Notes: generated from the letters alone by a model not told the origin. Positions 11,267 through 62,900 are shown, counted from the first letter of the stretch. The stretch is DNA of 64,000 nucleotides from Gigantopelta aegis (GCF_016097555.1 NW_024532772.1:67754-131753); one strand, 5' to 3'. Program-made: numbers and translations.

Positions 11267-12508
11267 ATGGCTACGGAAGAAACTTCGGATACAGAAAGAG
11301 ATGGGCATTCTTCGTCCAAGTATAAGAATACTTCAGAAAACAAAAAGAAAGTAGCAGCGAAACAGGACAGAGACTGCCTTTGTGGTATGAAAGTTGTCAT
11401 TACTGGAGGCTGTGGTTTTCTGGGCCTCCATCTTGCTCGACTGCTTTACCAAAAGGTTCAAGACATTCATATAATGTTGTTTGATAAGAGTCCTGCTGAT
11501 GAAGCTGCCATGAATTTTATTACTAATGGAGTACCTAATGGAGATCGTGTCAGTTATGGTGGAAGACACAATGACATTATGATTCTAGAACATCTCAATG
11601 CAGCTTTTCAAGATGCTGATGTTGTCTTCCATTGTGCTGCAATAACATCCTCGTGTGCTAAAATAGATTTCAATAAAAAAATGCAGAGAGTCAATGTAGA
11701 AGGCACAGCAAATGTTGTCAAAGCTTGTCAGAGACAAGGTGTACGAGCACTAGTCTTCACTGGTGACTTAGCTCAGGTTTTAAGATCTGGACTTCATGTA
11801 CAAGAGGGTATCACTGAAGATGTCATAGTTCGTGATCATGAGGAATTAGTAATGGATCATTTTGGACGTTCAAAGACTGAAGCAGAGAGGAAAATCCTCC
11901 AAGCAAATGGGTTCAAGACAACCTTATACACGTGTTCAATACGTTGTCCTCCTTTATATGGAGAAAATGATACCACATTCTTACCAAATGCTTTCTGGGC
12001 TGCTGAAAAGTTCTACAAATATTTTCCTTTAATTGGGCATCCTTCTGTGAAAATGACTGCTATGTATGTGGAAAATGCAGCCTGGGGTCATATATGTGCA
12101 GCAAAGAAGCTCCTGGATGAAAATGCCAGACTTAGAGTTGGTGGTCAGTTTTATTATGTTACAGATGACACTCCTTCTGAAAGCTACAGTGATTTCTTTA
12201 AGCGATTTCTTAGCTCTCTTGGTTATAGGACTTTACCTATTCGTCTTCCTGTCCTCCTTCTTACATGTTTTACTTACTTAATGGTTGTCTTGATTGTATT
12301 CTTAGTGGCTGTCTTTCAATATAAAAGTCTGGGTCGTGCTTTAAACTATCGTCGTCAACTTAAAATGCTATCTACCAGTCATACTGTTTCAAGAGAAAAG
12401 GCAAGGATTGAGTTGGACTATGAGCCTCATGTTCCATTTGATGAGGCATTCAAACAGTCTTCTCGATGGTATCTTTTTAACATTGGAATGCTTCTAACTA
12501 GAATATGA
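11267..12508 (+). CDS. intronless 3beta-hydroxysteroid dehydrogenase/isomerase-family (extended SDR, NAD(P)-binding) protein with C-terminal transmembrane helices
   Basis: VVITGGCGFLGLHLARLLY Rossmann motif, DVVFHCAAITS, and hydrophobic LPIRLPVLLLTCFTYLMVVLIVFLVAVF. The GTG-started ORF at 11258 actually begins at ATG 11267. Confidence 0.75.
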   Translation: MATEETSDTERDGHSSSKYKNTSENKKKVAAKQDRDCLCGMKVVITGGCGFLGLHLARLLYQKVQDIHIMLFDKSPADEAAMNFITNGVPNGDRVSYGGRHNDIMILEHLNAAFQDADVVFHCAAITSSCAKIDFNKKMQRVNVEGTANVVKACQRQGVRALVFTGDLAQVLRSGLHVQEGITEDVIVRDHEELVMDHFGRSKTEAERKILQANGFKTTLYTCSIRCPPLYGENDTTFLPNAFWAAEKFYKYFPLIGHPSVKMTAMYVENAAWGHICAAKKLLDENARLRVGGQFYYVTDDTPSESYSDFFKRFLSSLGYRTLPIRLPVLLLTCFTYLMVVLIVFLVAVFQYKSLGRALNYRRQLKMLSTSHTVSREKARIELDYEPHVPFDEAFKQSSRWYLFNIGMLLTRI

Positions 12509-14926: not shown

Positions 14927-16065
14927 ATGAAATGGCATAATTATAATGTTGTTATTACTGGAGGTTGTGGTTTTCTGGGCCTCCATCTTGCTCGACTGCT
15001 TTACCAAAAGGTTCAAGGCATTCATATAATCTTGTTTGATAAGAATCCTGCTGATGAAGCTGCCATGAATTTCATTACTAATGTAGGATATAATAAAGAT
15101 CGTGTCCGTTACAGTGGAAGACACAATGATATTACGATTCTAGAACATCTCAATGCAGCTTTTCAAGATGCTGATGTTGTCTTCCATTGTGCTGCAATAA
15201 CATCCTCATTTGCTCAAATAGATTTCAATAAAAAATGCAGAAAGTCAATGTAGAAGGCACAGCAAATGTTGTCAAAGCTTGTCAGAGACAAGGTGTACGA
15301 GCACTAGTCTTCACTGGTGACTTAGCTCAGGTTTTAAGATCTGGGCTTCATGTACAAGAGGGTATCACTGAAGATGTCATAGTTTCATGATCATGAGGAG
15401 TTAGTAATGGATTGTTTTTGGACGTTCAAAGACTGAAGCAGAGAGGAAAGTCCTCCAAGCAAATGGGTTCAAGACAACCTTATACACTTGTTCAATACGT
15501 TGTCCTCCTTTATATGGAGAAAATGATACTACATTCTTACCAAATGCTTTCTGGGCTGCTGAAAGATTTTGTAAGCATTTTCCTTTAGTTGGACATCCTT
15601 CCGTAAAAATGACTGCTATGTATGTGGAAAATGCAGCCTGGGGTCATATATGTGCAGCAAACAAACTATTGGATGAAAATGCCAGACTTAGAGTTGGTGG
15701 TCAGTTTTATTATGTCACAGATGACACTCCTTCTGAAAGCTACAGTGATTTCTTTAAGCGATTTCTTAAATATCTTGGTTATAATGTGTTACCTATTCGT
15801 CTTCCTGTCCTCCTTCTTACATGTTTTACTTACTTAATGGTTGTCTTGATTGTATTTTTAATGGCTTTTTTTCGATATAAAAGCCCGAGTCGTGTTTTTT
15901 AATTATCGTCGTCAACTTAAAATGTTATCTATCAGTCATACTGTTTCAAGAGAAAAGGCAAGGACTGAGTTGGACTATGAGCCTCACGTTCAATTTGATG
16001 AGGCATTCAGGAAATCTTCTAGATGGTATAATTTTAACATTGGAATGCTTCTAGACATAATATGA
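14927..16065 (+). pseudogene. tandem paralog of the 3beta-HSD-family gene, disrupted by several indels
   Basis: MKWHNYNVVITGGCGFLGLHLARLLYQKVQGIHIILFDKNPADEAAMNFITN... is about 90% identical in nucleotides to 11390-12508. Breaks at 15236 (A6 against A7), 15372-15390 and others. ORFs 14927-15253 and 15609-15902 are its pieces. Confidence 0.7.
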
Positions 16066-18888: not shown

Positions 18889-21800
18889 GAGGCGAAATGA
18901 TGCAAAGACCGCAAGGAATGAGGGAAAGGAATCGTGTGAACCATAATGTCCCGGTAGATCCTACAGGCCTAGGATATTCCAGCTGTCCACCTGGAATGCG
19001 TCTAATGCATCCACCAGTACATTATGAACAACCTGCTGGTATGCGTATGGTAAACCAACCTACTCCTCAGCTGACAATGCACAATATGACACAGCAACAG
19101 GAACAACAGGAATGTCAATATCCACGGCAACCAGATAGATGGCAACCACAATCAGGTAGATTTATAATTCTTTTACTCAATCACTGATTTTGTCAGTTCA
19201 TACACTTTTGTAATAACAATAATTTATAACAACACAGTTTCAAATCCATATATTGAAAGTCTCATACAAGCATTAGTCTCACACACATATACTTTAAAAG
19301 TATTGTACCCTACCTTAAAAATCTAATGTGTACCTCCTCAGCCATACATTAATAGTCTCATACTAATACATATATACAGGAAGTGAAATGATACAAAACC
19401 CACAAGAAATGACAGAAAGGGATCATGTGGACCAGAATATTCATGTAGCTCCTACAGGATATTCCAACTGTCCAACTGGAATGCATTTAATGCATCCACC
19501 AGTACATTATGAACAACCTCCTGGTGTGCGTATGGTAAACCAACCTACTCCTCAGCTGACAATGCACAATATGACACAGCAACAGGAACAACAGGATGTC
19601 AATATCCACGGCAACCAGATAGATGGCAACCACAATCAGGTAGATTTATAATTCTTTTACTCAATCACTGATTTTGTCAGTTCATACACTTTTGTAATAA
19701 CAATCATTTATAACAACACAGTTTCAAATCCATATATTGAAAGTCTCATACAAGCAGTAGTCTCACACACATATACTTTAAAAGTCTTGTACCCTACCTT
19801 AAAAATCTAATGTGTACCTCCTCAGCCATACATTAATAGTCTCATACTAATACATATATACAGGAAGTGAAATGATACAAAACCCACAAGAAATGACAGA
19901 AAGGGATCATGTGGACCAGAATATTCATGTAGCTCCTACAGGATATTCCAACTGTCCAACTGGAATGCATTTAATGCATCCACCAGTACATTATGAACAA
20001 CCTGCTGGTATGCGTATGGTAAACCAACCTACTCCTCAGCTGACAATGCACAATATGACACAGCAACAGGAACAACAGGAATGTCAATATCCACGGCAAC
20101 CAGATAGATGGCAACCACAATTAGGTAGATTTATAATTCTTTTACTCAATCACTGATTTTGTCAGTTCATACACTTTTGTAATAACAATAATTTATAACA
20201 ACACAGTTTCAAATCCATATATTGAAAGTCTCATACAAGCATTAGTCTCACACACATATACTTTAAAAGTATTGTACCCTACCTTAAAAATCTAATGTGT
20301 ACCTCCTCAGCCATACATTAATAGTCTCATACTAATACATATATACAGGAAGTGAAATGATACAAAACCCACAAGAAATGACAGAAAGGGATCATGTGGA
20401 CCAGAATATTCATGTAGCTCCTACAGGATATTCCAACTGTCCAACTGGAATGCATTTAATGCATCCACCAGTACATTATGAACAACCTCCTGGTGTGCGT
20501 ATGGTAAACCAACCTACTCCTCAGCTGACAATGCACAATATGACACAGCAACAGGAACAACAGGAATGTCAATATCCACGGCAACCAGATAGATGGCAAC
20601 CACAATCAGGTAGATTTATAATTCTTTTACTCAATCACTGATTTTGTCAGTTCATACACTTTTGTAATAACAATCATTTATAACAACACAGTTTCAAATC
20701 CATATATTGAAAGTCTCATACAAGCAGTAGTCTCACACACATATACTTTAAAAGTCTTGTACCCTACCTTAAAAATCTAATGTGTACCTCCTCAGCCATA
20801 CATTAATAGTCTCATACTAATACATATATACAGGAAGTGAAATGATACAAAAACCCACAAGAAATGACAGAAAGGGATCATGTGGACCAGAATATTCATG
20901 TAGCTCCTACAGGATATTCCAACTGTCCAACTGGAATGCATTTAATGCATCCACCAGTACATTATGAACAACCTCCTGGTGTGCGTATGGTAAACCAACC
21001 TACTCCTCAGCTGACAATGCACAATATGACACAGCAACAGGAACAACAGGAATGTCAATATCCACGGCAACCAGATAGATGGCAACCACAATCAGGTAGA
21101 TTTATAATTCTTTTACTCAATCACTGATTTTGTCAGTTCATACACTTTTGTAATAACAATAATTTATAACAACACAGTTTCAAATCCATATATTGAAAGT
21201 CTCATACAAGCAGTAGTCTCACACACATATACTTTAAAAGTCTTGTACCCTACCTTAAAAATCTAATGTGTACCTCCTCAGCCATACATTAATAGTCTCA
21301 TACTAATACATATATACAGGAAGTGAAATGATACAAAACCCACAAGAAATGACAGAAAGGGATCATGTGGACCAGAATATTCATGTAGCTCCTACAGGAT
21401 ATTCCAACTGTCCAACTGGAATGCATTTAATGCATCCACCAGTACATTATGAACAACCTCCTGGTGTGCGTATGGTAAACCAACCTACTCCTCAGCTGAC
21501 AATGCACAATATGACACAGCAACAGGAACAACAGGAATGTCAATATCCACGGCAACCAGATAGATGGCAACCACAATCAGGTAGATTTATAATTCTTTTA
21601 CTCAATCACTGATTTTGTCAGTTCATACACTTTTGTAATAACAATAATTTATAACAACACAGTTTCAAATCCATATATTGAAAGTCTCATACAAGCAGTA
21701 GTCTCACACACATATACTTTAAAAGTCTTGTACCCTACTTAAAAATCTAATGTGTACCTCCTCAGCCATACATTAATAGTCTCATACTAATACATATATA

Positions 21801-23016
21801 CAGGAAGTGAAATGATACAAAACCCACAAGAAATGACAGAAAGGGATCATGTGGACCAGAATATTCAGCTCCTACAGGATATTCCAACTGTCCAACTGGA
21901 ATGCATTTAATGCATCCACCAGTACATTATGAACAACCTGCTGGTATGCGTATGGTAAACCAACCTACTCCTCAGCTGACAATGCACAATATGACACAGC
22001 AACAGGAACAACAGGAATGTCAATATCACGGCAACCAGATAGATGGCAACCACAATCAGGTAGATTTATAATTCTTTACTCAATCACTGATTTTGTCAGT
22101 TCATACACTTTTATTTATAACAACACAGTTTCAAATCCAGTCTCATACAAGCATTAGTCTCACACACATATACTTTAAAAGTATTGTACCCTACCTTAAA
22201 AATCTAATGTGTACCTCCTCAGCCATATATTAAAGTCTCATACTAATACATATATACAGGAAGTGAATAACTGGTATGCAACCACCTATGATACAAAACC
22301 CACAAGAAATGACAGAAAGGGATCATGTGGACCAGAATATTCATGTAGCTCCTACAGGATATTCCAACTGTCCAACTGGAATGCATTTAATGCATCCACC
22401 AGTACATTATGAACAACCTCCTGGTGTGCGTATGGTAAACCAACCTACTCCTCAGCTGACAATGCACAATATGACACAGCAACAGGAACAACAGGAATGT
22501 CAATATCCACGGCAACCAGATAGATGGCAACCACAATCAGGTAGATTTATAATTCTTTTACTCAATCACTGATTTTGTCAGTTCATACACTTTTGTAATA
22601 ACAATCATTTATAACAACACAGTTTCAAATCCATATATTGAAAGTCTCATACAAGCAGTAGTCTCACACACATATACTTTAAAAGTCTTGTACCCTACCT
22701 TAAAAATCTAATGTGTACCTCCTCAGCCATACATTAATAGTCTCATACTAATACATATATACAGGAAGTGAAATGATACAAAACCCACAAGAAATGACAG
22801 AAAGGGATCATGTGGACCCAGTAGCTCCTACAGGATATTCCAGCTGTCCACCTGGAATGTGTCTAATGCATCCACCAGTACATTATGAACAATCTCCTGG
22901 TATGCGTATGGTAAACCAACCTACTCCTCAGCTGACAATGCACAATATGACACAGCAACAGGAACAACAGGAATGTCAATATCCATGGCAACCAGATAGA
23001 TGGCGACCACAATCAG
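18889..23016 (+). CDS. MED15: array of 10 tandemly duplicated symmetric exons (261 bp, phase 1-1) spaced about 485 bp apart, each encoding an 87-aa M/H/P/Q-rich module
   Basis: For example exon 20349-20609 lies between acceptor atatacag and donor GTAGAT. It encodes (G)SEMIQNPQEMTERDHVDQNIHVAPTGYSNCPTGMHLMHPPVHYEQPPGVRMVNQPTPQLTMHNMTQQQEQQECQYPRQPDRWQPQS. Units begin near 18889, 19380, 19864, 20349, 20835, 21320, 21805, 22280, 22765. Units 21805 and 22765 carry small deletions. Confidence 0.7.
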
Positions 23017-23187
23017 GTAGATTTATAATTCTTTTACTCAATCATTGTATTTTTGTATGATAAAAATACAAACAAGCCTTAGTTTTATACCCATACAGTA
23101 AACGTTTCATACCCATGCATTGAAGTCTCATAGTCATTAATTAAAACTTTGATTCTTGTGTACACAGGAGGTGAAATGATGCAAAGG

Positions 23188-25837: not shown

Positions 25838-26629
25838 ATGGACTCAGAAAGTGAAATCAGTACCACTGAGCCCGAAGACCTGATTTTAGATCTAGCCATC
25901 CATTATGCTGTACATCGCAGCTATCCACCAGGGTCGTCAAAGGAGAAAGCAGTACTTATTAATAATGGCTGGCTGACAGACAAGATCATCAATGAAGCTC
26001 AAAGTTTACTGAAGAAAAAATACCCCTATGTTAATGGACTTCAGGATGTGACACTAGGACTACTTTGTCATTTGCTATACAAACAGAGGAGTTTGTTCAA
26101 TTTTTCATACTGGACATGCCCACTGGGTAACAGTTACCAACATTGGTTGCAAAGATGGGGAAATCAACATCTTCGATAGCTATCCCCCAGTCACTACAAC
26201 ACACCTACTAGACCAGATTGCAGCACTGCTTGCAACTCCAAGATCTACCAGATATATGGACACCCAACTGCAGTGTGGTTCAACAGACTGTGGCATCTTC
26301 GCCATTGCATTTGCTGCAACCCTAGCAAATGGGATTAACCTGGGGCTTTCCATTTTGATCAGCCACAAATGCGAAAGCACTTGATACACTGTCTAGAAAC
26401 ACAGTGTCTCTCAGACTTTCCAGTTCAGCGAAGAAGGAGAAGAGGAAATGTAGTTAAGCATTCATATGCTCTGTACATCTACTGTTCCTGTAGAATGCCT
26501 GAACATCCAGGATGTACAATGGTGCAGTGCTCTACCTGTGGAGAGTGGTTCCATGTTGGTGTATGTGTGACTATACCCACTGAAATTTTAGACTCATCTA
26601 CAAAGTGGTCCTGTAACAAGTGTATTTAG
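25838..26629 (+). CDS. intronless Ulp1/SENP-like (C48) cysteine protease with a C-terminal PHD-type zinc finger. Frame slips at a T5 run near 26104
   Basis: LINNGWLTDKIINEAQSLL (the WLND-type motif), FHTGHAHWVTVTNIGCKDGEINIFDSY (His and Asp), QCGSTDCGIFAIAFAATLANG (Gln and Cys), then CSCRMPEHPGCTMVQCSTCGEWFHVGCVTIPTEILDSSTKWSCNKC. Confidence 0.6.
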
Positions 26630-45584: not shown

Positions 45585-48500
45585 ATGGAGAGGACTGGCG
45601 TAAAGAAGGACGGAGAATCTAAAAGTATCTACCGTATACCACCACACTACTATCTTCATGTTCTTGACCAAAATACCATGTTACAAAGGTAAGTGAATGC
45701 AAACCAATATCACCACTCTTATCTTAAATAACAGGTTGAAGTCGGACCTAAGACCTTCATTCGTCAAGACAATGAAAAGGTCATCGTTGGTCCTGAAAAA
45801 ATGATTGTGGTACCTCCACGTCACTATTGCATTGTTGAGAACCCAATACTAAGAAATAAGACAACTTACCTATTGTTGACAGCCACGGACAAGTCAAGTT
45901 ACGTCATGCTGATCAAGAAATTAGGCTGGCTCAAGACCCTTTCCCGCTATTTCCAGGAGAGGTTCTAAAACAGGTATATATAACTAATGTTAGCAAAATA
46001 GAATGCATTATCTCTCTTTCTCATTTCAGGCTGTGACACAGTTGAAAGTAGTACCAGCTAAACTCCGCCCTTCGTCTGCGTGCTATTTTGGACTTTGAGG
46101 AGTTTGATGGTACTAAGAGAATTGCTGGAGATGAATGGCTGTTTGAAGGACCAGGTAAACATATCATTGGTTTGTGTTGTGTGCCCTAAAGATTAAATTA
46201 GTTTCATTATGAGTGCCACAAATTTATCAATTGTTTAGTGAAATTAAAAACGGGAATAAAGAAGTTTAGTTTGAGTTTAGTTTCTTAACTTGACCTTCCC
46301 TCTCATGATCTTCTCTTGTTTGCTCTCATTGAATGATACATTTAGTAACACTAAGAGATTGTTCACTATAGTAGGAGTTGTGTGTACTGAACATATTACA
46401 TTAAACTATGTGGCATTCTAGAGTTACAGATAATGCATAGACATTACTATCATTACACCTCTGAGGATAATCCTGCTTACCAAATTTCTAACTACCCACA
46501 AACAGAACTAAATTTAAAAGTATATTATACATCAAACTCTCTTCTCTTTCTTGGAAGACATTTTCAGCCCTGACCTAGCCAGCTAAATTAGGTCAAAGTG
46601 TGTAATTAAATTCATTCTAGTTATCTTAACCAGTTTAGCAACAAGTACAAGTAATAGCAACACTTAACAGGTGTTTGTGTTTTGAATAAACCAGCACCTG
46701 TCAAGACCTTATCCATTCCTCTTCCTCCCTCCTTTAGGGACCTACATACCTTGCAAGGAAGTGGTTGTTGAAGAGACTATCAGAGCTACCGTCATCCGAC
46801 CTAACCAGGCGATCAAGCTGAGAGCACGCAAAGAGACAACTGTGCGTTAAAATGTTGCTTCAAATTGTTTTTAATTATGTTTTCTTTTATAGGATCGTGA
46901 TGGTAATCCTCGTGTTACTGGTGAGGAGTGGCTTGTAAAGAAAGTTGGTGCATATTTGCCAGGAGCTTATGAAGAAGTTGTCGATGTTGTGGATGCCTAC
47001 GTCTTGACTGAAAAGGTAAACTGACAAAATACTAACTAAATTAAATACTGACCAATCCTTATTTGGAACTTACTCATTTCTCCATGTCAATTAGGTTGCC
47101 CTGCATATGAGAGCCACTAGAACATTTACAGATCGTAACGGAGTGACAAGAAAGAATGGAGAAGAATGGCTGATAAAAATGGAGGACACTGAAGCTCATA
47201 TACCTGATGTTTATGAGGAGGTAAGACAGAGAGACAACAGACAAGTAACAGGCTGATTGTTGTATGACAGATACCTATTTGATAAATTTTTAGAATCTTT
47301 CTTCTCTATTTCTAGGTTGTCGGGATCGTCAACATTACTACTCTCAACAATCGACAATACTGTGTCATTTTAGATCCTGCAGGAGATGATGGCAAACCTC
47401 AACTGGGTCAGAAGAAGCTTATAAAGGGAGAGAAATCATTCTTCTTGAGACCTGGAGAGAGATTGGAGAAGGGTATTCAAAATGTCTATGTTTTGGGTGA
47501 AGACGAGGGTCTTATTTTGAAAGCCAGTGAAAGTTTTGTGGACAATGATTTGGTGAGTTCGTGTTACAAATCTGAAACCCAATCCACAAGTTTCAGACTT
47601 GTTCCAAAATCATAATTAAATTCCATGATTCTAGGGAGCTGAGCGCAGACCAGGAGATCGTTGGATGATCCGAGGACCTTTGGAGTATGTTCCACCAGTT
47701 GAAGTTGAGGTACTGACAAAACGCAAGGCAATCCCTCTTGATGAGAACGAGGGTATCTATGTGAGAGATATTAAGACAGGTCGTGTACGAGCTATCTGTG
47801 GTGCCACCTACATGCTAACGCAAGATGAAGAACTATGGTCTAAGGAACTTCCTCCTGGTGTCGAAGAGCTCCTCGCACAAGGGAAAGACCCACTGGCTGA
47901 TCGCTCAGATCGAAGTAAGAGATTTTAATTCATAGTTTTACTTTGCCGTTATTTATGGTAATTCAGAATTCCATTCCTATTATTTCATATCTTCATTTCT
48001 AATATTCCATTCTTAGTTCTATTTGTGACTTATGTTTTTCAGGTCGTCCCTCTGCTCAAATAAAACGTGACAAAACAAAGTTGTAAGCTTCAGAGTACCA
48101 CACAATGCAGCTGTCCAGATATATGATTATAAGGACAAGATGGCTCGTGTTGTATTTGGTCCTGAAATGGTCATGTTAGGACCTGATGAGCAGTTTACTC
48201 AGCTTAGTCTTTCTGGCGGGAAACCAAAACGACCCAATCAGATCAAGTCACTCTGCTTGTTGCTAGGACCTGATTTCTGCACTGATATCATTACCGTGGA
48301 AACAGCTGATCATGCTCGTCTTTCTCTACAGCTTTCCTACAACTGGTCAGTCTTGTTTTAGTCATAGCAGCTGTTTTATTTATCAATATGTTTTTGGTGT
48401 AGGCATTTTGAAGTTGACAAGACCAATGCCGATGATGCTGCTAAGATCTTTTCTGTTCCAGATTTTGTTGGTGACGCATGCAAAGCCATTGCCTCTCGTG

Positions 48501-49671
48501 TCCGTGGTACTGTTGCTGGTGTCCAATTTGATGACTTCCATAAGGTAAGTATCAATCAGTCACTTGTTATATAATGTGTCCTCCTCTTTCTTTGTAGAAT
48601 TCTGCTAGAATTATTCGCTCGTCTGTGTTTGGTTTAGATGATCGTGGAAAAGTCAAAGATCGTTTCTCCTTCCCTGCCAATAATCTTATCATTACAAGTA
48701 TTGATATCCAATCTGTTGAACCTGTTGATCAACGTACTCGTGATGCCCTACAAAAGTCTGTACAATTAGCTATTGAGATCACCACAAACTCACAAGAAGC
48801 TACTGCTCGGTGAGTCAAAGAGACGCATGTATAAATATGACCTCTGTCTCTTTCTTTAGCCATGAGGCTGAACGTTTGGAGCAAAAAGCAAAAGGTGCTT
48901 TGGAAAGACAAAAGATTACTGACGAAGCTGAAGCAGAGAAAGCTCGTAAAGACTTGTTGGAGCTCCAGGCCAAACAGGTCAGGATACTCTTAATAAATTG
49001 TAACTGTTTAGTTTTGTACTCTTGTTATACAGTGCTGCTGTGGAGTCTACTGGTCAGGCCAAAGCTGAGGCTCAGTCTCGTGCTGAGGCTTCAAAGATCG
49101 AGGGTGAGGCTGCTGTAGAGCAAGCTAAGCTAAAAGCACAGGCCTCTAAGATTGAAGCTGTAAGTTAGGACTTACTTAGTATCAAAAAATTTAATCGTTT
49201 CTATCTCTAGGAATCTGAGCTTGAACGTCTCTCGAGGGCACGTGAAGCTGAAATCAAAGTACATCGGAGAACAAAATGAATTAGAGATTTCAAAATCTCG
49301 TGAGCTCTCTGATATTGAAACTTCAAAATTTAAAAAATATGGTTGATGCCATTGGAGCTGATACTATTGCAGCTATTTCTACAGCTGGACCAGAAATGCA
49401 GGTCAGTGGTAACAAAGAACTGTAATAATGATACACTTAATATATTGAAGTATTGATACCAAACTAAGTTTAGTATTTTAGCTATTTTGATCATGTAAAC
49501 TATATTTACTTGACCTTCTCAATTTTATAGGTGAAGATGTTACAAGCTCTTGGTCTACGTTCTACACTCATTACTGACGGAAGTAATCCTATTAATCTGT
49601 TCAATACAGCTCATGGTCTTGTTGGCTCACTTCAAAGTGCTCCGAGAATTATTGAAGAGCCAGAGGATTAA
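45585..49671 (+). CDS. MVP: major vault protein gene (MVP), about 15 coding exons, with several 1-nt frame breaks
   Basis: Approximate exons 45585-45688, 45735-45963, 46031-46148, 46738-46843, 46893-47027, 47097-47220, 47316-47556, 47633-47919, 48051-48346, 48401-48545, 48598-48819, 48858-48967, 49033-49164, 49209-49401, 49532-49671. Peptides match human MVP: [297 protein letters not shown]. Frame breaks near 45686/45735, 45865, 46070 (aaa run), 48086 (aaaa run), 49250 and 49335. Confidence 0.85.
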
Positions 49672-52715: not shown

Positions 52716-54380
52716 TGAACCTTTAACTATCTTTTTTAAATCGATCTATCTTAAAGTATGACAGATCATAAGATGGTGGTAACTCCAGAGTTAATTCAGT
52801 GAGTATCTTGCCTACAACTGGACCTAATTTAAAACCATGTCCTGTAATTAAAGGGTTAAAATTAACTGTCCAGTTTGACCGTTATTTTACCTGAAAATCC
52901 AGCTCCTATAATATATTAGGATGGTTTGGGTGTCTGTCCAAGAATGGGTTTTTTGTCTGACTATAGAACATAGAAATTAAATTAACTCCTTCCTATACAC
53001 ATATTCTCACTGTCATTGTGTACATGCAGAATTCCATTATAGCAGGTTCACTAGAAACCACACCCTTAAAATGATCTTTAACAAATTGTGACGTAATCTT
53101 AAAAGAGTAGCTGTCAGGACTGGCATCACGACTATCAGGATCAACGTCAGGACCATGATGTAGACAAACCTAATATAATATAACTATATGATATTAATAT
53201 TCATTAAAATGTCATATTATAGGCTCAATCCCATACTCCATATTATGTACAATACCATAGGCTCAATCTCATACTCCAAATTATGTACAATACCATAGGC
53301 TCAATCCCATATTCCATATTATGTACAAAACCATAGGCTCAATCCCATACTCCATATTATGTACAATACCATAGGCTCAATCCCATACTCCATATTATGT
53401 ACAATACCATAGGCAATCCCATATTCCATATTATGTACAATACCATAGGCTCAATTCATACTCCATATTATGTACAATACATAGGCTCAATCCCATACTC
53501 CATATTATGTACAATACCATAGGCTCAATCTCATACTCCAAATTATGTACAATACCATAGGCTCAATCCCATATTCCATATTATGTACAAAACCATAGGC
53601 TCAATCCCATACTCCATATTATGTACAATACCATAGGCTCAATCCCATATTCCATATTATGTACAATACATAGGCTCAATCCCATACTCCATATTATGTA
53701 CAATACCATAGGCTCAATCCCATACTCTATATTATGTACAATACCATAGGCTCAATCCCATACTCCATATTATGTACAATACCATAGGCTCAATCCCATA
53801 CTCTATATTATGTACAATACCATAGGCTCAATCCCATACTCCATATTATGTACAATACCATAGGCTCAATCCCATACTCTATATTATGTCCCATACAATT
53901 CCATACTCCACAACACACTCATTATTTCATATTACAATAATACCATAGTCTGCTCTAGTTACGCCATACTACAATCCTCAGGCTCATTCCCATTATTCCA
54001 TACCTTTAAAAGCCCAGGATACTCATATATAGGAAGACCATAAAATTCAGTCTTGTTGATAGACTTGCAAATAAAAGTTGGAAACTCATTGGCAGAGAAG
54101 ATCTTTGGATCCTCAGTTTGCCAATATAGAACTTCTGTTCTTATTGGCTATTGGAGACATACTGTTAGTACGAATGTATGTATATCGTTGTTACCTGAAG
54201 TGGTAATGTTAATCCAGTGAGTGTTGTTAATTTATTAGTCCATGCTCCAGCTGTTAAGATTAGTCTCTTAGTTTTAAAGTTGTTACCTCTCTCAGTTTGA
54301 ACAGTGATAATATCTCCTGGAATTATATCAGTAACTTTATGATTGTCTAATAGTTGACCTCCATGTTGAATAAAAAGATC

Positions 54381-54435
<55 letters not shown>

Positions 54436-55109
54436 AGAGATACAGAGGTCATTTTTTACGACCTGTATTGTAGCAACAGCTTTACTAGCTCGTAGTACTC
54501 CACCATGTTCCTCAAAGACACAGGTATAGTCATTAGGAAGTTGTAACTGATGAGTATATTTCAAGTTAGCTTCTTCACCAGATAGAACTTGATGTGGTGT
54601 GTTGTTAGCTTCTAATGACTTAATAAAATGATCAACATCACTGCCTCCAAATATGATGGTACCAGTTTTACTGACGGAAGAGAGAGAGAATGAAAAGCAG
54701 AGAGACAAAGACATATTTAACTTACACAAACAAGGTGTTGTTCCAGATTTAATCTCAATTTCTGACCACATTTTGAAAGCTTCATCCATCATTTTAACAT
54801 AATAACTTTGATGATAAGCTTTCCTTGTAATACGTGATCCGCCATGAGAAACTACCACGTACATGACCTCTATCAAACTAAGAATAGAAACATATTTTAG
54901 TGACTATAATTCTGTCTATTCTAGTCTCATTTCTATAATATTCTAATATCTATGTTCCTAGTCTCCTTGGGACTATTTATTTCCTTACTTGTTCCAAGAG
55001 CAGTACATTTTGTGTACCTCTAGAAGTAAGGTAGTAAGCAGTAGAACTTCCCTCTATACCAGCTCCAATAATAATGACATCATAAACACTAGATTCCATC
55101 TCTAGAGAC
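52716..55109 (-). CDS. PIPOX: peroxisomal sarcosine oxidase / L-pipecolate oxidase-like (MSOX family, FAD-dependent), copy A, about 8 exons. Appears intact
   Basis: First exon 55109-54989 [37 protein letters not shown] (GxGxxG). Then [76 protein letters not shown]...[10 protein letters not shown]. Last exon ..[40 protein letters not shown]. Introns contain (GA)n/(CT)n microsatellites. Confidence 0.75.
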
Positions 55110-55152
55110 AAATTGTTCTAAATGATATGTGTGTATGTTAACAAAAATTATA

Positions 55153-57250
55153 ATATTATTTCAAAGTTACTTTAAATCGATCTATCCTGAAGTATGACAG
55201 ATCATATGATAGTGGTAATTCCAGAGCTAATTCAGTGAGTATCTTGCCTACAACTGGACCTAACTTAAAACCATGTCCTGTAATAAAGGATTAATTAAAA
55301 AAACAACCATTTTGGTATGGGTTCACCTGAAAATCCAGCTCCAATAATAATATTAGGATGGTTTGGGTGTCTGTCCAGGAATGGGTCTCTGTATGGCTAC
55401 AGGATTACATGTACATGGTACATATAGTTACATATACCCCACTTACAGTATATGTGTTATGCAAGTTTCATATATTGCAGGTTCTGAGAACACCACACTT
55501 TTAAAATGACCTTTGATAAACTTAGACACAGACTTCCACGTGTATGAACTAGGATTATAATCTCGAGCATCAGGATCAATTTTTGGTAAGTATCTCCACA
55601 AACCTAAGGAGTAATATTGCAGAGTACAATGGACTCATTTCCATACCTTGAAAAGACCAGGATATTCAAATATCGGTTGTCCATAAATCTCTAATGTTTA
55701 GACTTATATGCAAAAACTGGAAACTCATTGGCAGAAAATACTTTTGGGTTTTCAGTATTCCAATAAAGAACTTCTGCTTTATAAGGCTAAGAGAGAGAGA
55801 GAGAGAAAGATAACAATATTAGTTGTATATCATTGTTACCTGAAGTGGTAATGTAATCCAGTGAGTTTTATTATTATTATTAGTCCATGCTCCAGCTGTT
55901 AAGATTAGTCTCTTAGTTTTAAAGTTGTTACCTCTCTCAGTTTGAACAGTGATAATATCTCCTGGAATTATATCAGTAACTTTATGATTGTCTAACAGTT
56001 GACCTCCATGTTGAATAAAAAGATCCTGAGAGAGAGAGAGAGAGTTAGAGATACAGAGGTCATTTTTACTGACCTGTATTGTAGCAACAGCTTTACTAGC
56101 TCGTAGTATTCCACCATATTCCTCAAAGACACAGGTATAGTCATTAGGGAAGTTGTAACTGATGAGGATATTTCAAGTTAGCTTCTTCACCAGATAGAAC
56201 TTGATGTGTGTGTTGTTAGCTTCTAATGACTTAATGTATGACCAACTATTTCACCATCACCAAATACAGTAATACCAGTTTGTCTGAGAGAGAGAGAGAG
56301 AGAGAGTAACATTAAATTTAGTATAATTTTGTTAATAAACCCCACAATCTCTTTCTCTAGTTAAAGCATAGGGGTGGAGCTTATGTAATAACTACTGGGT
56401 ACTATAAAGATATCCGTAAGGGTACAAATTTTCGAGGGTTTAAATTTTCGTGTTTTTTAAATTTGCTTTATTATTTAAATTTCGTGGGTATTAATTTTCG
56501 TGTTTAGTGGGTGTGAAGTATTAATTAATGGGTGTGGTGTCAGACACAGTGTTGTGTTAACACAAGCGTGATTTTCCCGAAGTATGGCTACGTATTCCAA
56601 TTAAATCCATGGTGAGAGGGTACCATGTATACAAGAAAATCTGGGAGGCAGTTGATGGAGAGTACTTCAGTGTAAAATAGAAAGAAGTAACCCTTTACAG
56701 TAGCCGTTATTTACACGCTTATTGAGATCACGTGATTATGCGTGGGTGGAATAAAAGTTAAATTTCGTGTTAAAACAACAACCCACGAATATAGCGAAAA
56801 TAAATCCCCCCACGAAAATTTATACCCTTACGTATAGCAAAGGTCAACATTAAAGGTATGTGACTTACTGGTATAGCTGATTTCCTGATTTGATCTCAAT
56901 TTCTGACCACATTTGAAAGCTTCATCCATCATTTTAACATAATAACTTTGATGATAAGCTTTCCTTGTAATACGTGATCCACCATGAGAACTACCACGTA
57001 CATGACCTCTATCAAACTAAGAATAGAAACACATTTTAGTGACTCTATAATTCTGTCTATTCTAGTCTCATTTCCATGATATTCTAATATCTATGTTCCC
57101 ATTCTTCTTGGGAATGAGACTATTTATTTTCCTTACTTGTTCCAAGAGCAGTACATTTTGTGTACCTCTAGAAAGTAAGGTAGTGAGCAGTAGAAACTTC
57201 CCTCTATACCAGCTCAATAATAATGACATCATAAACACTAGAAGAAATAG
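55153..57250 (-). pseudogene. PIPOX: PIPOX-like copy B: near-identical tandem duplicate of copy A with a lost start codon, indels in the FAD motif and a MITE insertion
   Basis: 55700-56100 is about 95% identical to 54050-54460. The first-exon remnant at 57140-57250 reads [19 protein letters not shown]... with no ATG. Confidence 0.55.
56415..56832. mobile_element. ~418-bp MITE-like insertion with 20-bp terminal inverted repeats (1 mismatch) and subterminal AAATTTTCGTG repeats
   Basis: Left end cgtaagggtacaaattttcg. Right end cgaaaatttatacccttacg, whose reverse complement is cgtaagggtataaattttcg. Absent from the equivalent intron of copy A. Confidence 0.6.
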
Positions 57251-57492
57251 TGCCTGCACTGGTAGACATTTTAAGCAGTGATATCAGCTGATTTTTATGA
57301 ATGCTAACTCCTCAATTACAATTGTTGATATGTAATATATATACATCTGATATTAGGTAATTACTCGTGTGGGATTTAAGAAATACTTATAAACAAATAA
57401 ATAAAACATCTATGATAATATAAATATGCTCTAATATCTATGATGAATAGTGATATAGGAATATTAATAATTAAAACTCGGGACAATTTGTC

Positions 57493-59400
57493 ATGGCTGT
57501 TAGTGATAAATTAGGTTTTGTTATGTATGATGTTATTATTATTGGTGCTGGTATAGAAGGTAGTGCTGCTGCTTACTACCTTACATCAAAATCCAACAAG
57601 AAAGTTCTTCTTTTGGAGCAAGTGAGCTATCTCTCTCTCATATATTTCCATCTATATTGTTTTCAGTTTGAGGTACTACACACTCGTGGTAGTTCTCATG
57701 GAGCCTCTAGGATAACGTCGATTAGCTTACAATGAAGCTATTTATGTTAATATTATGAAGGAGGCTTACCAGTTATGGGAGGAGATAGAAAAGAAATCAC
57801 AACGTCAAACTTTACTGGTACATCTCATTGTACATGATGTCTTTATTGTAACTAGTCATATTCATCTATTCATCCATCTGTCCATTATACACATGTCTAT
57901 TTGTCCATTTACCAACCATCCATCCATCCAACCATCCTTTATATGGTTTCTTCAAATAGGAAGACAGGAATATTGGCTCTAGGCAAAGCTACTGACTCTT
58001 CAATAGACTTATATCATAATTCCTTAGATTTGAATGGAGTACCGCACATAAAGTCCTTACTGGGAGAGAAGCCAAGAAACTCTATTCTTGTCAACTGAGT
58101 ATTCCTGATGATAACAGGTGTATTTTTGAACCAAATGGAGGTGTATTAAAAGCCTCCAAGGCTTTGAGAACTTTACAGGTATTTAAGGATATTACACATA
58201 TTTATTTTGACAATCATAATTTATAATTATTATTTTTATTATAATACAGGAGTTGTTTCTACAACAAGGGGGTTGTCTCCTTGACAACCATCAGGTCACC
58301 AAGTTAATTCCTGGAGCAGTTGTTTACCGCTGTGACTGATAAAGGTAGTTTTCAAGCATGGAATGTGATCTTAACAACTGGTGCTTGGACAAACAGGATA
58401 CTGAATCAACTGGACTAACATTACAATGAAAGTATGGGAGAAGAACACTAACATTCTGTCTATTTATCCATCCATCCATATATCTATCTGTCCATCCATC
58501 CATGTATCTATTTACTTATGACATATAGAGCTGAAGTTCTTTTATTTTAAAGTTGATGAACCAGATGCTTTCTCAGCTGACAATTTCCCTGTCTTTCTAA
58601 ACTGCACATCCACCTGTTACTAATGTACCATCTATATATGGGACACCAATATTGGAAATATCCTGGACTACTAAAAGTAAGGTCATCACATGTAAAGTAT
58701 CTTTTTTATTTGTTATGGTTTACATGTAAAGTATCTGTTTACTTGTTATGTTTACAGGTAAAGTATATCAATTGTTTACTTGTTATTTTACATGTAAAGT
58801 ATCTTTTTTACTTGTTATGTTTACACGTAAAGTATCTTGTTTACTTGTTTGTTTACACATAAAGTATCTTGTTTACTTGTCACATGTCATCTATTCTTGT
58901 AGCAAACACATGTTCTGTTATTAAAAATTAATGATATACTTTCTCAGGTTTGTCAGTTTTTTGGAGATGACAAAGAGATTGATCCTGAGACCAGAGATTC
59001 CATTCCTCAGAGTTTGACTCTTGAACGAATTAAAGAATTCATCAAGAATCATTTCAAAGGAGTGAGCACTGAACCTGCTATTTTTGAGCTATGTCTCTAT
59101 GCAGATACTGTGAGTTGGTCTCATTCTATTTTCAGATTTTTGTTCAAGATTTCCATTCTCATATTTCCGTTCATGTATCTTTTTCTTCTTTATAGCCAGA
59201 TAACAATCCCTACATTGACAGACATCCTAAATATTCAAATATCATCGTAGGAGCAGGATTTTCTCATGGTTTTAAGATGGCTCCTGTTATCGGCAAGTTA
59301 TTAAGTGAACTGGTACTGAATTTGTTACCATCTTATGACCTGACACCTTTTAAGGTTGACCGCTTACAAGACCCCCAAGGCAGGATTGTGAGAAATTTTA
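57493..59400 (+). CDS. PIPOX: PIPOX-like copy C on the opposite strand, about 7 exons, with several frame breaks
   Basis: [43 protein letters not shown] (57493-57623). [17 protein letters not shown] / [31 protein letters not shown]. ..[44 protein letters not shown].. ..[91 protein letters not shown]. Confidence 0.65.
58690..58900. repeat. ~31-bp minisatellite x6 in an intron of copy C
   Basis: ttacatgtaaagtatcttgtttacttgttatg repeated. ORF 58623-58862 is its translation. Confidence 0.85.
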
Positions 59401-61734: not shown

Positions 61735-62900
61735 TCAGGAGGGTACAGACTTGTTTACACTATCCTCAGACCCAATACATTTATTAGGCCTCGGACTCAG
61801 TACCTTCAGTAGACTCAGACTTGGTCTAATGTCAGACTTTTCTATCTGAGAAGCAGCACTAGGAGGTTGAAAACTCTTAAAAAACACTACTATTGCAGTG
61901 AGGTTATCGCCTGATCCCTCACTACGAGCAAATTTCACTACACTCTTAGCAGCATTAACCATAGTTCCTCCATTTAGGAAATGCTTCCTCATGCAATCAC
62001 TCATCTCTTCTCCGTTAACAACATCCCATATCCCATCGCAGGCAACCACTAAATAATCCTCAGAACCGTCCAAGTCAACTGTCGTCACTTCCGCTTCGCC
62101 AATTAATATTTTTTATCTTTAGCATCACCAATAGCTCGAGATACAGCAAGGTTACCATTAACTCTCCATGCTCCCAAAAAGATGACAAGTCCTCCTGATT
62201 CTTCAATGCGTTTCTGTGTCATCTGTGAAAGGAGAAAGAAAGGAAATAAAGAGCGGAATTTAGGAAGGAACAGGGAAATGTAATGTAATAACTTAAATGT
62301 GAGTCACTCCCAGGTGGTATGAGGGTAAGAAGTGACTGGGCTGCCGGGGATGTAAACTAATAATGTTTTGTCAACATCTTTATCAGGCAATTTTAAATTT
62401 TCCCTGTATGGTAATTTAATTCCATTGGTACTCTCTATGACTTCTATTATCATGCTTTAGCACTCAACGTTAAACATTCAAAGACACAATCTTTCCCCTC
62501 ATTTCTCCCTTTCACTTTCTCTCTTTCCCTTACTCTCGTCTCTCCCGATGCATACCTACTCTATCTGGCTTGTGTGGGTACCATAATTTCTACGGCTTGA
62601 CCTTTACGGAACACACATAGCTTGAGAATCTCCTAGCCAACGATGTATAGCTTAAGTCCTCTAAGTAAAGCAACAACAGCTGTAGCACCAGCTTTGGTGT
62701 CCTGAAAAGAGGAAGGAGAGAAGTGAGCTATAATAGTCCCAAATAAGGAAGTGGTACAGACAAAAATCAATTTAATGACAATGGATCTTAGGATGGTAAG
62801 TTCAAAGAGGAGGCTTCTAACTGGAGACAGTTTCTATTCTAATGTCTCAAGGATTCATTACAAAGAGGTCATGTCTTGCTGGTGCTTTGATGACTAGGAG
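61735..62900 (-). CDS. PP2C-family (PPM) Ser/Thr phosphatase, 3' exons. Frameshift at a T7 run near 62103-62109
   Basis: [60 protein letters not shown] / [77 protein letters not shown]. These are the classic PP2C motifs. Confidence 0.7.

What the first reader, a model, noticed from the sequence alone, without database searches (positions are those of the whole stretch)
52716..59400. Tandem triplication of PIPOX-like sarcosine/pipecolate oxidase genes with one inverted copy and a MITE insertion
Copies A and B are head-to-tail on the minus strand and about 95% identical over long stretches, introns and their (GA)n microsatellites included, which points to a recent duplication. Copy C lies divergently on the plus strand. 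Copy B has lost its start codon and carries a 418-bp TIR element (56415-56832) absent from A. Copy C carries its own intronic 31-bp minisatellite. This is a snapshot of duplication followed by inactivation by transposon.
Basis: seen in the sequence. Interest (0 to 1): 0.5.

Follow-up and report, generated by a model that had tools for sequence, protein, structure and literature searches.

The report
Ordinary three-copy sarcosine-oxidase gene cluster
Three neighbouring copies of a sarcosine/pipecolate-oxidase-like gene really are there, one with a small mobile element in an intron, but the story that a transposon killed a freshly duplicated copy does not hold, because the element sits harmlessly in an intron and the broken reading frames are largely the kind of one-base errors that also riddle obviously working genes in this assembly.

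Summary
The layout is confirmed. There are three PIPOX/MSOX-like genes: A 52726-55099 (-), B 55156-57269 (-) and C 57493-~59400 (+). B and A lie head-to-tail, and B and C lie head-to-head.

1. A and B are not uniformly about 95% identical. Exons 1-4 are 95% identical (dS 0.14) and exons 7-8 are 93%. Exons 5-6 are only 77% (dS about 1.4), and introns 2 and 5 cannot be aligned. This is the pattern of old paralogues partly homogenised by gene conversion.
2. B has an in-frame ATG 12 codons upstream of YDV.
3. The TIR element (56411-56836) is a real MITE. Six further copies, 81-89% identical, exist in public assemblies. It lies wholly inside intron 2 of B, clear of both splice sites.
4. All three copies carry 1-nt frameshifts. 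So do the major vault protein gene (5 in 2.6 kb, 93% identical to a homologue) and a 3β-HSD paralogue. All of those changes are in homopolymer runs.
5. No copy has a nonsense codon, every intron is GT-AG, and dN/dS is 0.2-0.5.

B and C do carry 3-5 times more frame breaks than the control genes. Young pseudogenes therefore cannot be excluded. This is an ordinary gene cluster of low interest.

The parts
52726..55099 (-). PIPOX/MSOX-like copy A. It has 8 exons: 55099-54989, 54877-54728, 54670-54463, 54380-54195, 54147-54004, 53169-53011, 52960-52891, 52841-52726. There are 2-3 one-nt frame breaks (about 54851, about 52913, and a possible phase problem at the exon 6/7 junction). There is no nonsense codon. 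AATAAA lies at 52664.
   Evidence: All seven introns are GT-AG. Identity to P0001 is 60% at the protein level.
55156..57269 (-). PIPOX/MSOX-like copy B. It has 8 exons: 57269-57137, 57016-56869, 56283-56074, 56025-55840, 55786-55647, 55603-55447, 55396-55327, 55277-55156. The in-frame ATG is at 57269. There are about 12 one-nt frame breaks, including a compensated pair in exon 4, and no unambiguous nonsense codon.
   Evidence: Identity to P0001 is 62% at the protein level, no lower than for A. All seven introns are GT-AG.
57493..59400 (+). PIPOX/MSOX-like copy C, the divergent and most distant copy. Its exons are 57493-57621, 57667-57817, 57960-58178, 58250-58431, about 58531-58676, 58948-59109 and 59196-59400+. 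It lacks intron 7 of A/B and one Gly of the GFSGHGFK motif. It has about 7 frame breaks. Its stop codon is uncertain, because the frame stays open to 59504.
   Evidence: dS against A and B is saturated (about 1.8), with omega about 0.2.
56411..56836 (.). MITE-like non-autonomous TIR element inside intron 2 of copy B. The TIR arms are 56411-56438 and 56809-56836. AAATTTTCG(TG) subterminal repeats are present. An internal ORF fragment, SMVRGYHVYKKIWEAVDGE, lies at 56561-56677 (+).
   Evidence: Six other copies in public ENA assemblies are 81-89% identical, and the homology ends at the TIRs.
53219..53896 (.). 38-bp x 18 minisatellite. It makes up most of the 834-nt intron 5 of copy A. The homologous intron of B is only 43 nt.
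58688..58880 (.). 32-bp x 5.8 minisatellite in intron 5 of copy C.
54383..54433 (.). (GA)25 in intron 3 of A. The homologous tract in B (56027-56044) is shorter.
54195..55093 (-). High-identity A/B tracts, interpreted as gene-conversion tracts. They run from exon 1 to late exon 2 (A 54745-55093 = B 56886-57242) and from mid exon 3 to exon 4 (A 54195-54640 = B 55840-56252). A divergent island around intron 2 separates them.
52961..54194 (-). Old, unconverted A/B block running from intron 4 to intron 6 (B 55397-55839). Nucleotide identity is 77%, dS about 1.4 and omega 0.25.
52735..52960 (-). Third high-identity A/B tract, covering exons 7-8 (B 55171-55396). Exon identity is 92.6% and dS is 0.18.
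55100..55155 (-). 56-nt spacer between the stop codon of B and the ATG of A. It contains no AATAAA. GT at 55170 and AG at 55118 would define a 53-nt in-frame intron joining B to A.
57270..57492 (.). 223-nt AT-rich spacer between the divergent start codons of B and C. It is presumably a shared or bidirectional promoter region; this is an inference.

Best explanation
This is an ordinary three-member family of FAD-dependent sarcosine/L-pipecolate-oxidase-like genes (MSOX/PIPOX family). It sits in a compact, AT-rich (35% GC) metazoan genome, probably that of a sponge.

History of the copies. C split from the A/B ancestor long ago. A and B are also old tandem paralogues, and both evolved under purifying selection. 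Their 5' two-thirds (exons 1-4 with introns 1 and 3) and their last two exons have since been homogenised by gene conversion. The block from intron 4 to intron 6, and the region around intron 2, escaped. Those escaped regions coincide with large heterologies: the MITE-expanded intron 2 of B and the minisatellite-expanded intron 5 of A.

The element. A roughly 420-bp non-autonomous TIR element of a multi-copy family inserted into intron 2 of B. It enlarged that intron from the local norm of 45-120 nt to 587 nt without touching an exon or a splice site. It therefore did not inactivate the gene.

The broken frames. The disrupted reading frames seen in all three copies are mostly, perhaps entirely, homopolymer-length errors of the assembly. 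A is most likely intact. B and C carry an excess of such breaks and may be young unprocessed pseudogenes, but this cannot be decided without reads or transcripts.

What is shown and what is inferred. Shown: the layout, the family membership, the mosaic divergence, the intronic position and multi-copy nature of the element, and the assembly noise. Inferred: gene conversion as the cause of the mosaic, the heterology-barrier idea, and the functional state of each copy.
For: Family:
- Full-length DAO domain.
- MSOX structures at E 2e-55, with His45/Arg49/Arg52, Lys265 and the FAD-linking Cys aligned.
- More than 2000 PIPOX homologues; the best named one is Halichondria panicea at 55%.

Layout.

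Mosaic divergence:
- dS is 0.14, 1.40 and 0.18 for exons 1-4, 5-6 and 7-8, with omega 0.25 in the old block.
- Heterogeneity is significant at p 5e-15 for all sites and 4e-13 for synonymous sites.
- A and B remain each other's closest relatives in every block.

Element:
- It is intronic, 31 nt from the donor and 126 nt from the acceptor.
- Six further copies on ENA contigs are 81-89% identical, and the homology stops at the TIRs. Three of them lie on 280-673 kb contigs of one assembly.

Assembly noise:
- MVP is 93% identical to P0121 yet has 3 frameshifts in 687 codons, plus 2 more in its N-terminal exons.
- The corrected N-terminus of MVP aligns without gaps to PDB 3gf5.
- 3β-HSD copy 2 has 4 frameshifts and no stops.
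- Every one of these changes, and every 1-nt A/B difference, is a change in homopolymer run length.
- The 485-bp tandem array shows about 1.5 one-nt indels per kb.

Constraint on the copies:
- After frame correction there are no nonsense codons in A, B or C.
- All introns are GT-AG.
- Nonsynonymous changes in the converted tracts are split evenly between the A and B lineages.
Against: - B (about 10 frame breaks per kb) and C (about 6 per kb) exceed the control rate of 1.3 per kb set by MVP plus HSD1 (Poisson p 9e-8 and 1e-3).
- B exceeds A, 12 breaks to 3 (p 0.035).
- At least two of C's breaks are not in homopolymers.
- B carries a compensated frameshift that rewrites 8 conserved residues.
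- C lacks a Gly of the conserved GFSGHGFK motif.
- Together these points suggest that some of the lesions in B and C are real.
- Gene conversion is inferred only from the pattern of divergence. No donor-recipient polarity or population data are available.
- No clean target-site duplication or empty site could be defined for the element.
- The organism was not identified.
Confidence: 0.7

Rival explanations
1. One reading: a recent tandem duplication produced A and B, and B was then inactivated by insertion of the TIR element and loss of its start codon.
For: The element is present only in B. B has the most frame breaks. B has no ATG at the position of A's ATG.
Against: The element is entirely intronic and spares both splice sites. 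B has an in-frame upstream ATG that gives a normal-length N-terminus. dS of about 1.4 in exons 5-6 shows that the duplication is old. B is as close to the outgroups as A is.
Confidence: 0.04
2. A is the working gene. B and C are genuine young unprocessed pseudogenes that decayed by small indels, independently of the MITE. Assembly noise adds only about 2 breaks per kb on top.
For: Frame-break density is 3-5 times higher in B and C than in MVP, HSD1 or A. Some of C's indels are not in homopolymers. B has a compensated frameshift and C has lost a Gly in a conserved motif. Omega is about 0.36-0.5 in the recently converted tracts, which is intermediate between constrained and neutral.
Against: There is no nonsense codon in 375 codons of either copy. 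All splice sites are intact. The derived nonsynonymous changes are not enriched on the B lineage. In the converted exons there are 12 one-nt gaps to 31 substitutions, a ratio of about 0.4. From general knowledge of neutral DNA, where the ratio is roughly 0.05-0.2, this is too high for ordinary neutral decay.
Confidence: 0.4
3. All three copies are intact, expressed genes, and every frame break is a consensus error. Under this model errors are worse in B and C because of locally low or hemizygous coverage, or because reads were cross-mapped between near-identical tracts during polishing.
For: The same homopolymer-type breaks occur in MVP and in HSD copy 2. There are no nonsense codons, all introns are GT-AG, and the long-term omega is 0.2-0.25. 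B's breaks are concentrated in the tracts that are 95-99% identical to A: 9 of about 12 fall in exons 1-4.
Against: Cross-mapping should damage A as much as B, but A has only 2-3 breaks. C has no near-identical partner yet has about 7 breaks, two of them outside homopolymers.
Confidence: 0.3
4. B and A form one transcription unit. A has no promoter of its own and is expressed from the B/C bidirectional promoter, either as a bicistronic read-through transcript or, after removal of a 53-nt intron, as a two-domain B-A fusion protein.
For: Only 56 nt separate the stop of B from the ATG of A. There is no AATAAA in that spacer, whereas A has one 60 nt past its stop. GT(55170)...AG(55118) defines an in-frame intron of typical length for this locus. 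The repeat unit begins and ends within the coding sequence.
Against: None of the 120 best homologues is double-length. The six open codons and the GT/AG could easily be chance in AT-rich sequence. A has its own ATG. The fusion would require an open B frame, which the assembly does not show.
Confidence: 0.07
5. A and B are an assembly artefact: two haplotypes of one gene placed in tandem (a false duplication).
For: The assembly is demonstrably noisy, and the spacer between the units is very short.
Against: Exons 5-6 are only 77% identical with dS about 1.4. Introns 2 and 5 are unrelated in length and sequence. The two copies have different N- and C-termini. This is far beyond allelic divergence.
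Confidence: 0.02

Closest known systems
Peroxisomal sarcosine oxidase / L-pipecolate oxidase (PIPOX) and bacterial monomeric sarcosine oxidase (MSOX), Pfam DAO PF01266
   Same: The copies have the full-length domain and 45-62% identity to animal PIPOX-like proteins. The GxGxxG motif is present. The His/Arg/Arg, Lys and FAD-linking Cys positions align with MSOX.
   Different: As read, no copy ends in a PTS1 tripeptide: A ends ...KKDS and B ends ...VTLK. Peroxisomal location is therefore not supported. The substrate is unknown. There are three clustered paralogues here, where vertebrates have a single gene (the vertebrate state is from general knowledge).
Tandem paralogues homogenised by ectopic gene conversion (the general phenomenon, for example globin or opsin clusters)
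   Same: Blocks of low and high synonymous divergence alternate sharply along two adjacent paralogues. The high-identity tracts include introns.
   Different: No population or outgroup-locus data are available to show direction or timing. The tract boundaries coincide with large intronic insertions, which is suggestive only.
MITEs (miniature inverted-repeat transposable elements; non-autonomous class II elements)
   Same: The element is about 420 bp long with terminal inverted repeats of about 25 nt and subterminal repeats. It has no transposase. It is multi-copy, with homology ending at the TIRs, and it is located in an intron.
   Different: The superfamily is unassigned, because no consistent target-site duplication was found across five independent copies. 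The family carries a conserved ORF fragment (SMVRGYH[VI]YKKIWEAVDGE...) of unknown origin, with no Pfam or PDB match.
Unprocessed (duplicated) pseudogenes
   Same: The copies retain introns and have disrupted reading frames, and B and C carry an excess of frame breaks.
   Different: There are no nonsense codons, the splice sites are intact and omega is well below 1. The same class of lesion occurs in clearly functional genes of the window.

Membership tests
MSOX/PIPOX (FAD-dependent amine oxidase, Pfam DAO) | Full-length DAO domain | tested here: met
   In frame-corrected copy A, PF01266 scores E 1.5e-48 and covers profile positions 1-353 of 353. B and C align end to end with P0001 and P0002.
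MSOX/PIPOX (FAD-dependent amine oxidase, Pfam DAO) | N-terminal GxGxxG dinucleotide-binding motif | tested here: met
   A and C read [12 protein letters not shown] has the same codons with a 1-nt G deletion (GG to G) at 57214.
MSOX/PIPOX (FAD-dependent amine oxidase, Pfam DAO) | Cysteine for covalent 8α-S-cysteinyl FAD (MSOX Cys315) and active-site His45/Arg49/Arg52/Lys265 | tested here: met
   In the alignment to 3m0o, A's EFCMYT aligns with [21 protein letters not shown] aligns with GSHHGDTRIIR, and GLLK aligns with the K265 position. B (ETCI) and C (ELCLY) keep the Cys. The residue roles come from knowledge of MSOX and were not tested here.
MSOX/PIPOX (FAD-dependent amine oxidase, Pfam DAO) | Peroxisomal targeting signal PTS1 at the C-terminus (applies to the 'peroxisomal' PIPOX label) | tested here: not met
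   A ends KKDS* and B ends VTLK*. C's stop codon is uncertain. The Halichondria homologue ends AKL. A homopolymer error next to A's stop codon cannot be excluded.
MSOX/PIPOX (FAD-dependent amine oxidase, Pfam DAO) | Sarcosine or L-pipecolate oxidase activity | not testable with these tools
   This needs an enzyme assay.
MITE / non-autonomous TIR transposon | Terminal inverted repeats | tested here: met
   The arms are 28 nt and 25/28 complementary. The 19-nt core occurs twice in the window against 0.04 expected.
MITE / non-autonomous TIR transposon | Small size and no transposase | tested here: met
   The element is 426 bp, has stops in all six frames and has no Pfam hit.
MITE / non-autonomous TIR transposon | Multiple dispersed copies whose homology ends at the TIRs | tested here: met
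   L020-L025 are 81-89% identical over the whole element, and their flanks are unrelated to the window. Three copies lie in one assembly, although L021 and L023 also share flanks with each other. There is only one copy in the 64-kb window. The copy number in this organism's own genome was not testable.
MITE / non-autonomous TIR transposon | Target-site duplication | tested here: inconclusive
   TA, AAA or none are all possible for the window copy. L020 has ACTAC on both sides. No register fits all copies.
MITE / non-autonomous TIR transposon | Empty (pre-insertion) site in a paralogue or allele | tested here: inconclusive
   Intron 2 of A (57 nt) cannot be aligned with the flanks of the element in B.
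Unprocessed pseudogene (claimed for B) | ORF-disabling mutations beyond the sequencing error rate | tested here: inconclusive
   B has about 12 one-nt frame breaks and C about 7, against 1.3 per kb in the control genes. The breaks are of the same homopolymer type as the assembly errors in MVP and HSD2. There are no nonsense codons.
Unprocessed pseudogene (claimed for B) | Relaxed selection (dN/dS approaching 1, lineage-specific excess of nonsynonymous change) | tested here: not met
   Omega is 0.25 in the old block and about 0.36-0.5 in the converted tracts. Derived nonsynonymous changes number about 2-3 on the B lineage and about 4 on the A lineage. Power is low, with only 19 differences.
Unprocessed pseudogene (claimed for B) | Loss of expression or of a translatable transcript | not testable with these tools
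   No reads or transcripts of this organism are available. The closest transcript, P0001, is only 59-62% identical.
Gene conversion between tandem paralogues | Significant alternation of low- and high-divergence tracts, at synonymous and intronic sites as well as overall | tested here: met
   (p 4e-13 at synonymous sites).

The most novel reading that the evidence does not exclude
B and A are not two genes but one transcription unit. A whole-coding-sequence internal tandem duplication left A without a promoter, 56 nt behind B. A 53-nt in-frame intron (55170-55118) would then splice the two into a double-domain PIPOX-like oxidase, or A would be translated from a bicistronic message. The frame breaks in B would in that case have to be assembly errors.
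Probability: 0.06. Interest if true: 0.4.

Novelty: new member of a known kind. Interest (0 to 1): 0.12.

Why it matters
Biologically it matters little. Clustered paralogues of a metabolic oxidase, patchy gene conversion and an intronic MITE are all routine in invertebrate genomes.

The practical value is cautionary. This assembly carries roughly 1.5-2 homopolymer-length errors per kb even in coding sequence. Any frameshift-based pseudogene or 'inactivation' call made from this genome, including other findings from the same scan, is therefore unreliable until the sequence is polished.

The MITE family defined here (TIR consensus about TACYRTAAGGGTAYAAATTTTCG, roughly 420 bp, with at least seven copies across public assemblies) could be added to a repeat library for the host lineage.

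Tried and rejected
1. Other copies of the element in the window. Pattern search with 3 mismatches and blastn with word size 9 found none.
2. Metagenome scan with the 19-nt TIR core. It returned 14 loci (L001-L014). All are unrelated beyond the 19-mer, and several belong to a different repeat, so they are chance matches.
3. Pfam and PDB searches with the element's internal peptide, following a remembered resemblance to HIRAN-like motifs. Nothing significant was found, and the lead was dropped.
4. Exact-protein look-up of the intact 3β-HSD ORF to identify the organism. It is not on record. Literature searches for the sample names and for PIPOX in sponges found nothing relevant. The organism remains unidentified. 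'Sponge' rests on the best named PIPOX hit and on an SRCR neighbour in the closest transcript.
5. The bacterial promoter and terminator scan is uninformative for a eukaryote, and its counts equal the shuffles.
6. Rfam and tRNA scans of the whole window found nothing.
7. A systematic search for a TSD over all registers, in the window copy and in five independent copies, gave no consistent answer.
8. The apparent in-frame TAG in exon 5 of B and TGA at the end of exon 4 of C were considered as nonsense mutations. Both lie beside obligatory frame corrections, and both disappear under an equally parsimonious placement of the 1-nt indel. They were therefore not counted (reasoned).
9. The collapsed-allele or false-duplication explanation was rejected on divergence.


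Full report
WHAT IS THERE

The region 52.7-59.5 kb of an AT-rich (34.8% GC) intron-containing eukaryotic window holds three genes, and only three, related to peroxisomal sarcosine/L-pipecolate oxidase (tblastn with two homologues). A frame-corrected translation of copy A supports the family assignment in three ways.
- It is a full-length Pfam DAO domain (PF01266, E 1.5e-48, profile 1-353/353).
- It matches bacterial monomeric sarcosine oxidase structures at E 2e-55, with the FAD-linking Cys and the His/Arg/Arg/Lys positions aligned.
- It has more than 2000 PIPOX-like homologues. The best is an unnamed JGI transcript (59%), followed by Halichondria panicea (55%).

The three genes are:
- Copy A, 55099-52726 on the minus strand.
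- Copy B, 57269-55156 on the minus strand, directly upstream of A.
- Copy C, 57493-~59400 on the plus strand, head-to-head with B across 223 nt.

A and B have eight exons. C has seven, because it lacks the last intron. Every intron in all three copies is GT-AG.

CHECKING THE STATED OBSERVATIONS

The layout, the (GA)n tracts, the TIR element and C's minisatellite (period 32, 5.8 copies, 58688-58880) are all real. Three statements are not accurate.

First, A and B are not about 95% identical throughout. Segment-by-segment alignment gives the following identities.
- Exons 1-4: 95.2%.
- Introns 1 and 3: 94%.
- Exons 7-8: 92.6%.
- Exons 5-6: 77%.
- Introns 4, 6 and 7: 77%.
- Intron 2 (57 vs 587 nt) and intron 5 (834 vs 43 nt) cannot be aligned.

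Second, B has not lost its start codon. It lacks an ATG where A has one. However, it has an in-frame ATG at 57269 ([18 protein letters not shown]...), which gives an N-terminus of the length seen in C and in the Halichondria protein.

Third, the element is not a clean insertion relative to A, because the surrounding intron differs completely between the two copies.

AGE AND HISTORY OF THE COPIES

I built frame-corrected codon alignments with a small protein-to-DNA dynamic-programming aligner and computed Nei-Gojobori distances.
- A-B dS is 0.14 in exons 1-4, 1.40 in exons 5-6 and 0.18 in exons 7-8.
- The heterogeneity is highly significant (p 4e-13 at synonymous sites).
- In the old block omega is 0.25. 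A-C and B-C have saturated dS (about 1.8) and omega about 0.2.
- A and B are each other's closest relatives in every block (61% against about 50% amino-acid identity in exons 5-6).

The simplest reading is an old A/B duplication, long purifying selection on both copies, and later gene conversion over the 5' two-thirds and the 3' end. The unconverted parts contain or flank the two big heterologies: the MITE-expanded intron 2 of B and the minisatellite intron 5 of A. That fits heterology limiting conversion tracts, but this link is an inference. 'Recent duplication' is therefore not supported.

THE READING-FRAME PROBLEM

After optimal frame correction the counts are as follows.
- A has 2-3 one-nt frame breaks.
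- B has about 12, including a compensated pair that rewrites NKLTTLTGL to NNNNKTHWI.
- C has about 7.

The decisive control is the rest of the window.
- The major vault protein gene (45586-49668) is 93% identical at the protein level to a homologue. It nevertheless needs three frame corrections in 687 codons and two more in its N-terminal exons.
- With those corrections, its N-terminus aligns without a gap to PDB 3gf5.
- A 3β-HSD-like paralogue (14948-16053) needs four corrections and has no stops. Its neighbour (11267-12508) is an intact 413-codon ORF.
- Every one of these breaks, and every 1-nt difference between A and B, is a change in the length of a short homopolymer run.
- The 485-bp tandem array at 19-23 kb shows about 1.5 such events per kb.

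The assembly therefore carries roughly 1.5-2 homopolymer errors per kb, and frameshifts here are not evidence of pseudogenes.

In keeping with this, none of the three PIPOX copies has an unambiguous nonsense codon and all splice sites are canonical. B is as close to the outgroups as A is (62% against 60% to P0001). The few nonsynonymous differences in the converted tracts are shared evenly between the A and B lineages.

Against a purely technical explanation, several points stand.
- B (10 per kb) and C (6 per kb) exceed the control rate significantly (p 9e-8 and 1e-3).
- Two of C's breaks are not in homopolymers.
- C has lost a Gly from the conserved GFSGHGFK motif.

My judgement is that A is probably intact. 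The status of B and C cannot be settled from this sequence. The odds between young pseudogenes and locally poor consensus are roughly even.

THE ELEMENT

The inverted repeat is 56411-56438 / 56809-56836 (25/28 complementary). It carries AAATTTTCG(TG) subterminal repeats and has stops in all six frames.

The element is the only copy in the window. A metagenome scan with its 19-nt core returned only chance matches.

A profile-free search with the 39-residue ORF inside the element found P0242, a spurious ORF called through another copy. Using it as a query and fetching the contigs gave six further copies. They are 81-89% identical over the whole roughly 420 bp, and the homology stops at the TIRs. 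Three of them lie on 280-673 kb, 32-34% GC contigs of a single ENA assembly. Two of those three also share their flanks, so they are not independent insertions.

The TIR consensus is about TACYRTAAGGGTAYAAATTTTCG. No target-site duplication fits all copies, so the superfamily is unassigned.

In B the element lies wholly inside intron 2, 31 nt past the donor and 126 nt before the acceptor. It lengthened an intron and did not interrupt the gene.

A LOOSE END

Only 56 nt separate the stop codon of B from the ATG of A. The spacer has no AATAAA, whereas A has one 60 nt past its stop. A GT (55170) ... AG (55118) pair would make a 53-nt in-frame intron joining the two ORFs. The repeat unit also begins and ends inside the coding sequence.

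A may therefore depend on B's promoter. A B-A fusion or a bicistronic transcript is not excluded, but it is unlikely. None of the 120 best homologues listed is double-length, and the signals could be chance.

COMPARISON WITH WHAT IS KNOWN, AND VERDICT

Everything here belongs to well-known categories: an MSOX/PIPOX-family gene cluster, concerted evolution of tandem paralogues, an intronic MITE, intronic mini- and microsatellites, and an error-prone long-read-style assembly.

The copies are members of the MSOX/PIPOX family on every sequence criterion tested except a C-terminal PTS1, which is absent as read. The label 'peroxisomal' is therefore not warranted.

The evolutionary story of recent duplication followed by transposon inactivation is not supported. 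Interest is low (0.12). The main usefulness is the warning about frameshift-based inferences in this assembly.

Noticed in passing
window 45586-49668 (+): A major vault protein gene of about 15 exons, 93% identical at the protein level to JGI protein P0121. It is interrupted by five 1-nt homopolymer frameshifts at about 45858, 46065, 48073, 49256 and 49332. It is a clear marker of indel noise in the assembly.
   Followed up: yes
window 11267-12508 and 14948-16053 (+): A tandem pair of intronless 3β-HSD/NAD-dependent epimerase-like genes, 92.8% identical at the nucleotide level. The first is an intact 413-codon ORF. The second has four homopolymer frameshifts and no stop codons.
   Followed up: partly
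window 18971-23053 (+): A 485-bp x 8.5 tandem array, 95% matches, whose units each carry an open frame encoding a Pro/Gln/Met-rich repeat (...HPPVHYEQPPGVRMVNQPTPQLTMHNMTQQQEQQ...). Related single units lie at about 23.1-23.8, 27.6-28.2 and 34.5-35.2 kb. Function unknown.
   Followed up: partly
window 26058-26626 (+): ORFs with a Ulp1/C48 peptidase domain (E 2.6e-5) followed by a PHD finger (E 1e-6). This may be one gene, or a domesticated or transposon-associated protease gene.
   Followed up: no
window 53219-53896: A 38-bp x 18 minisatellite (93% matches) makes intron 5 of copy A 834 nt long, against 43 nt in B. Copy C has an unrelated 32-bp minisatellite in the homologous intron.
   Followed up: partly
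window 55100-55170 (-): The stop of B and the ATG of A are only 56 nt apart, with no poly(A) signal between them. A 53-nt GT-AG interval would join the two ORFs in frame.
   Followed up: partly
window 56561-56677 (+); L020 5001-5372: The MITE family carries a conserved ORF fragment (SMVRGYH[VI]YKKIWEAVDGEV.QCK.ER.N). The motif also occurs, repeated, in an unrelated predicted protein (P0241). This suggests the element derives from, or captured, a coding exon. It has no Pfam or PDB match.
   Followed up: partly
L021 2872-3287 and L023 2810-3232 (ENA ERZ21830300): Two MITE copies on different long contigs share about 40 nt of flanking sequence on both sides. In that genome the element therefore sits inside a larger repeat or a segmental duplication.
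   Followed up: no
L015-L019 (JGI 3300046521, Ga0499339_0868xx): The closest PIPOX homologue (P0001) comes from intronless transcript isoforms. In them the PIPOX ORF is followed immediately, with a 1-nt overlap, by an SRCR-domain ORF. These are read-through or chimeric transcripts from a very compact genome.
   Followed up: no
window 61738-62112 (-): A 125-codon open exon containing ...[10 protein letters not shown]...[11 protein letters not shown].... From memory this looks like the C-terminal part of a PP2C-type phosphatase. It was not tested.
   Followed up: no
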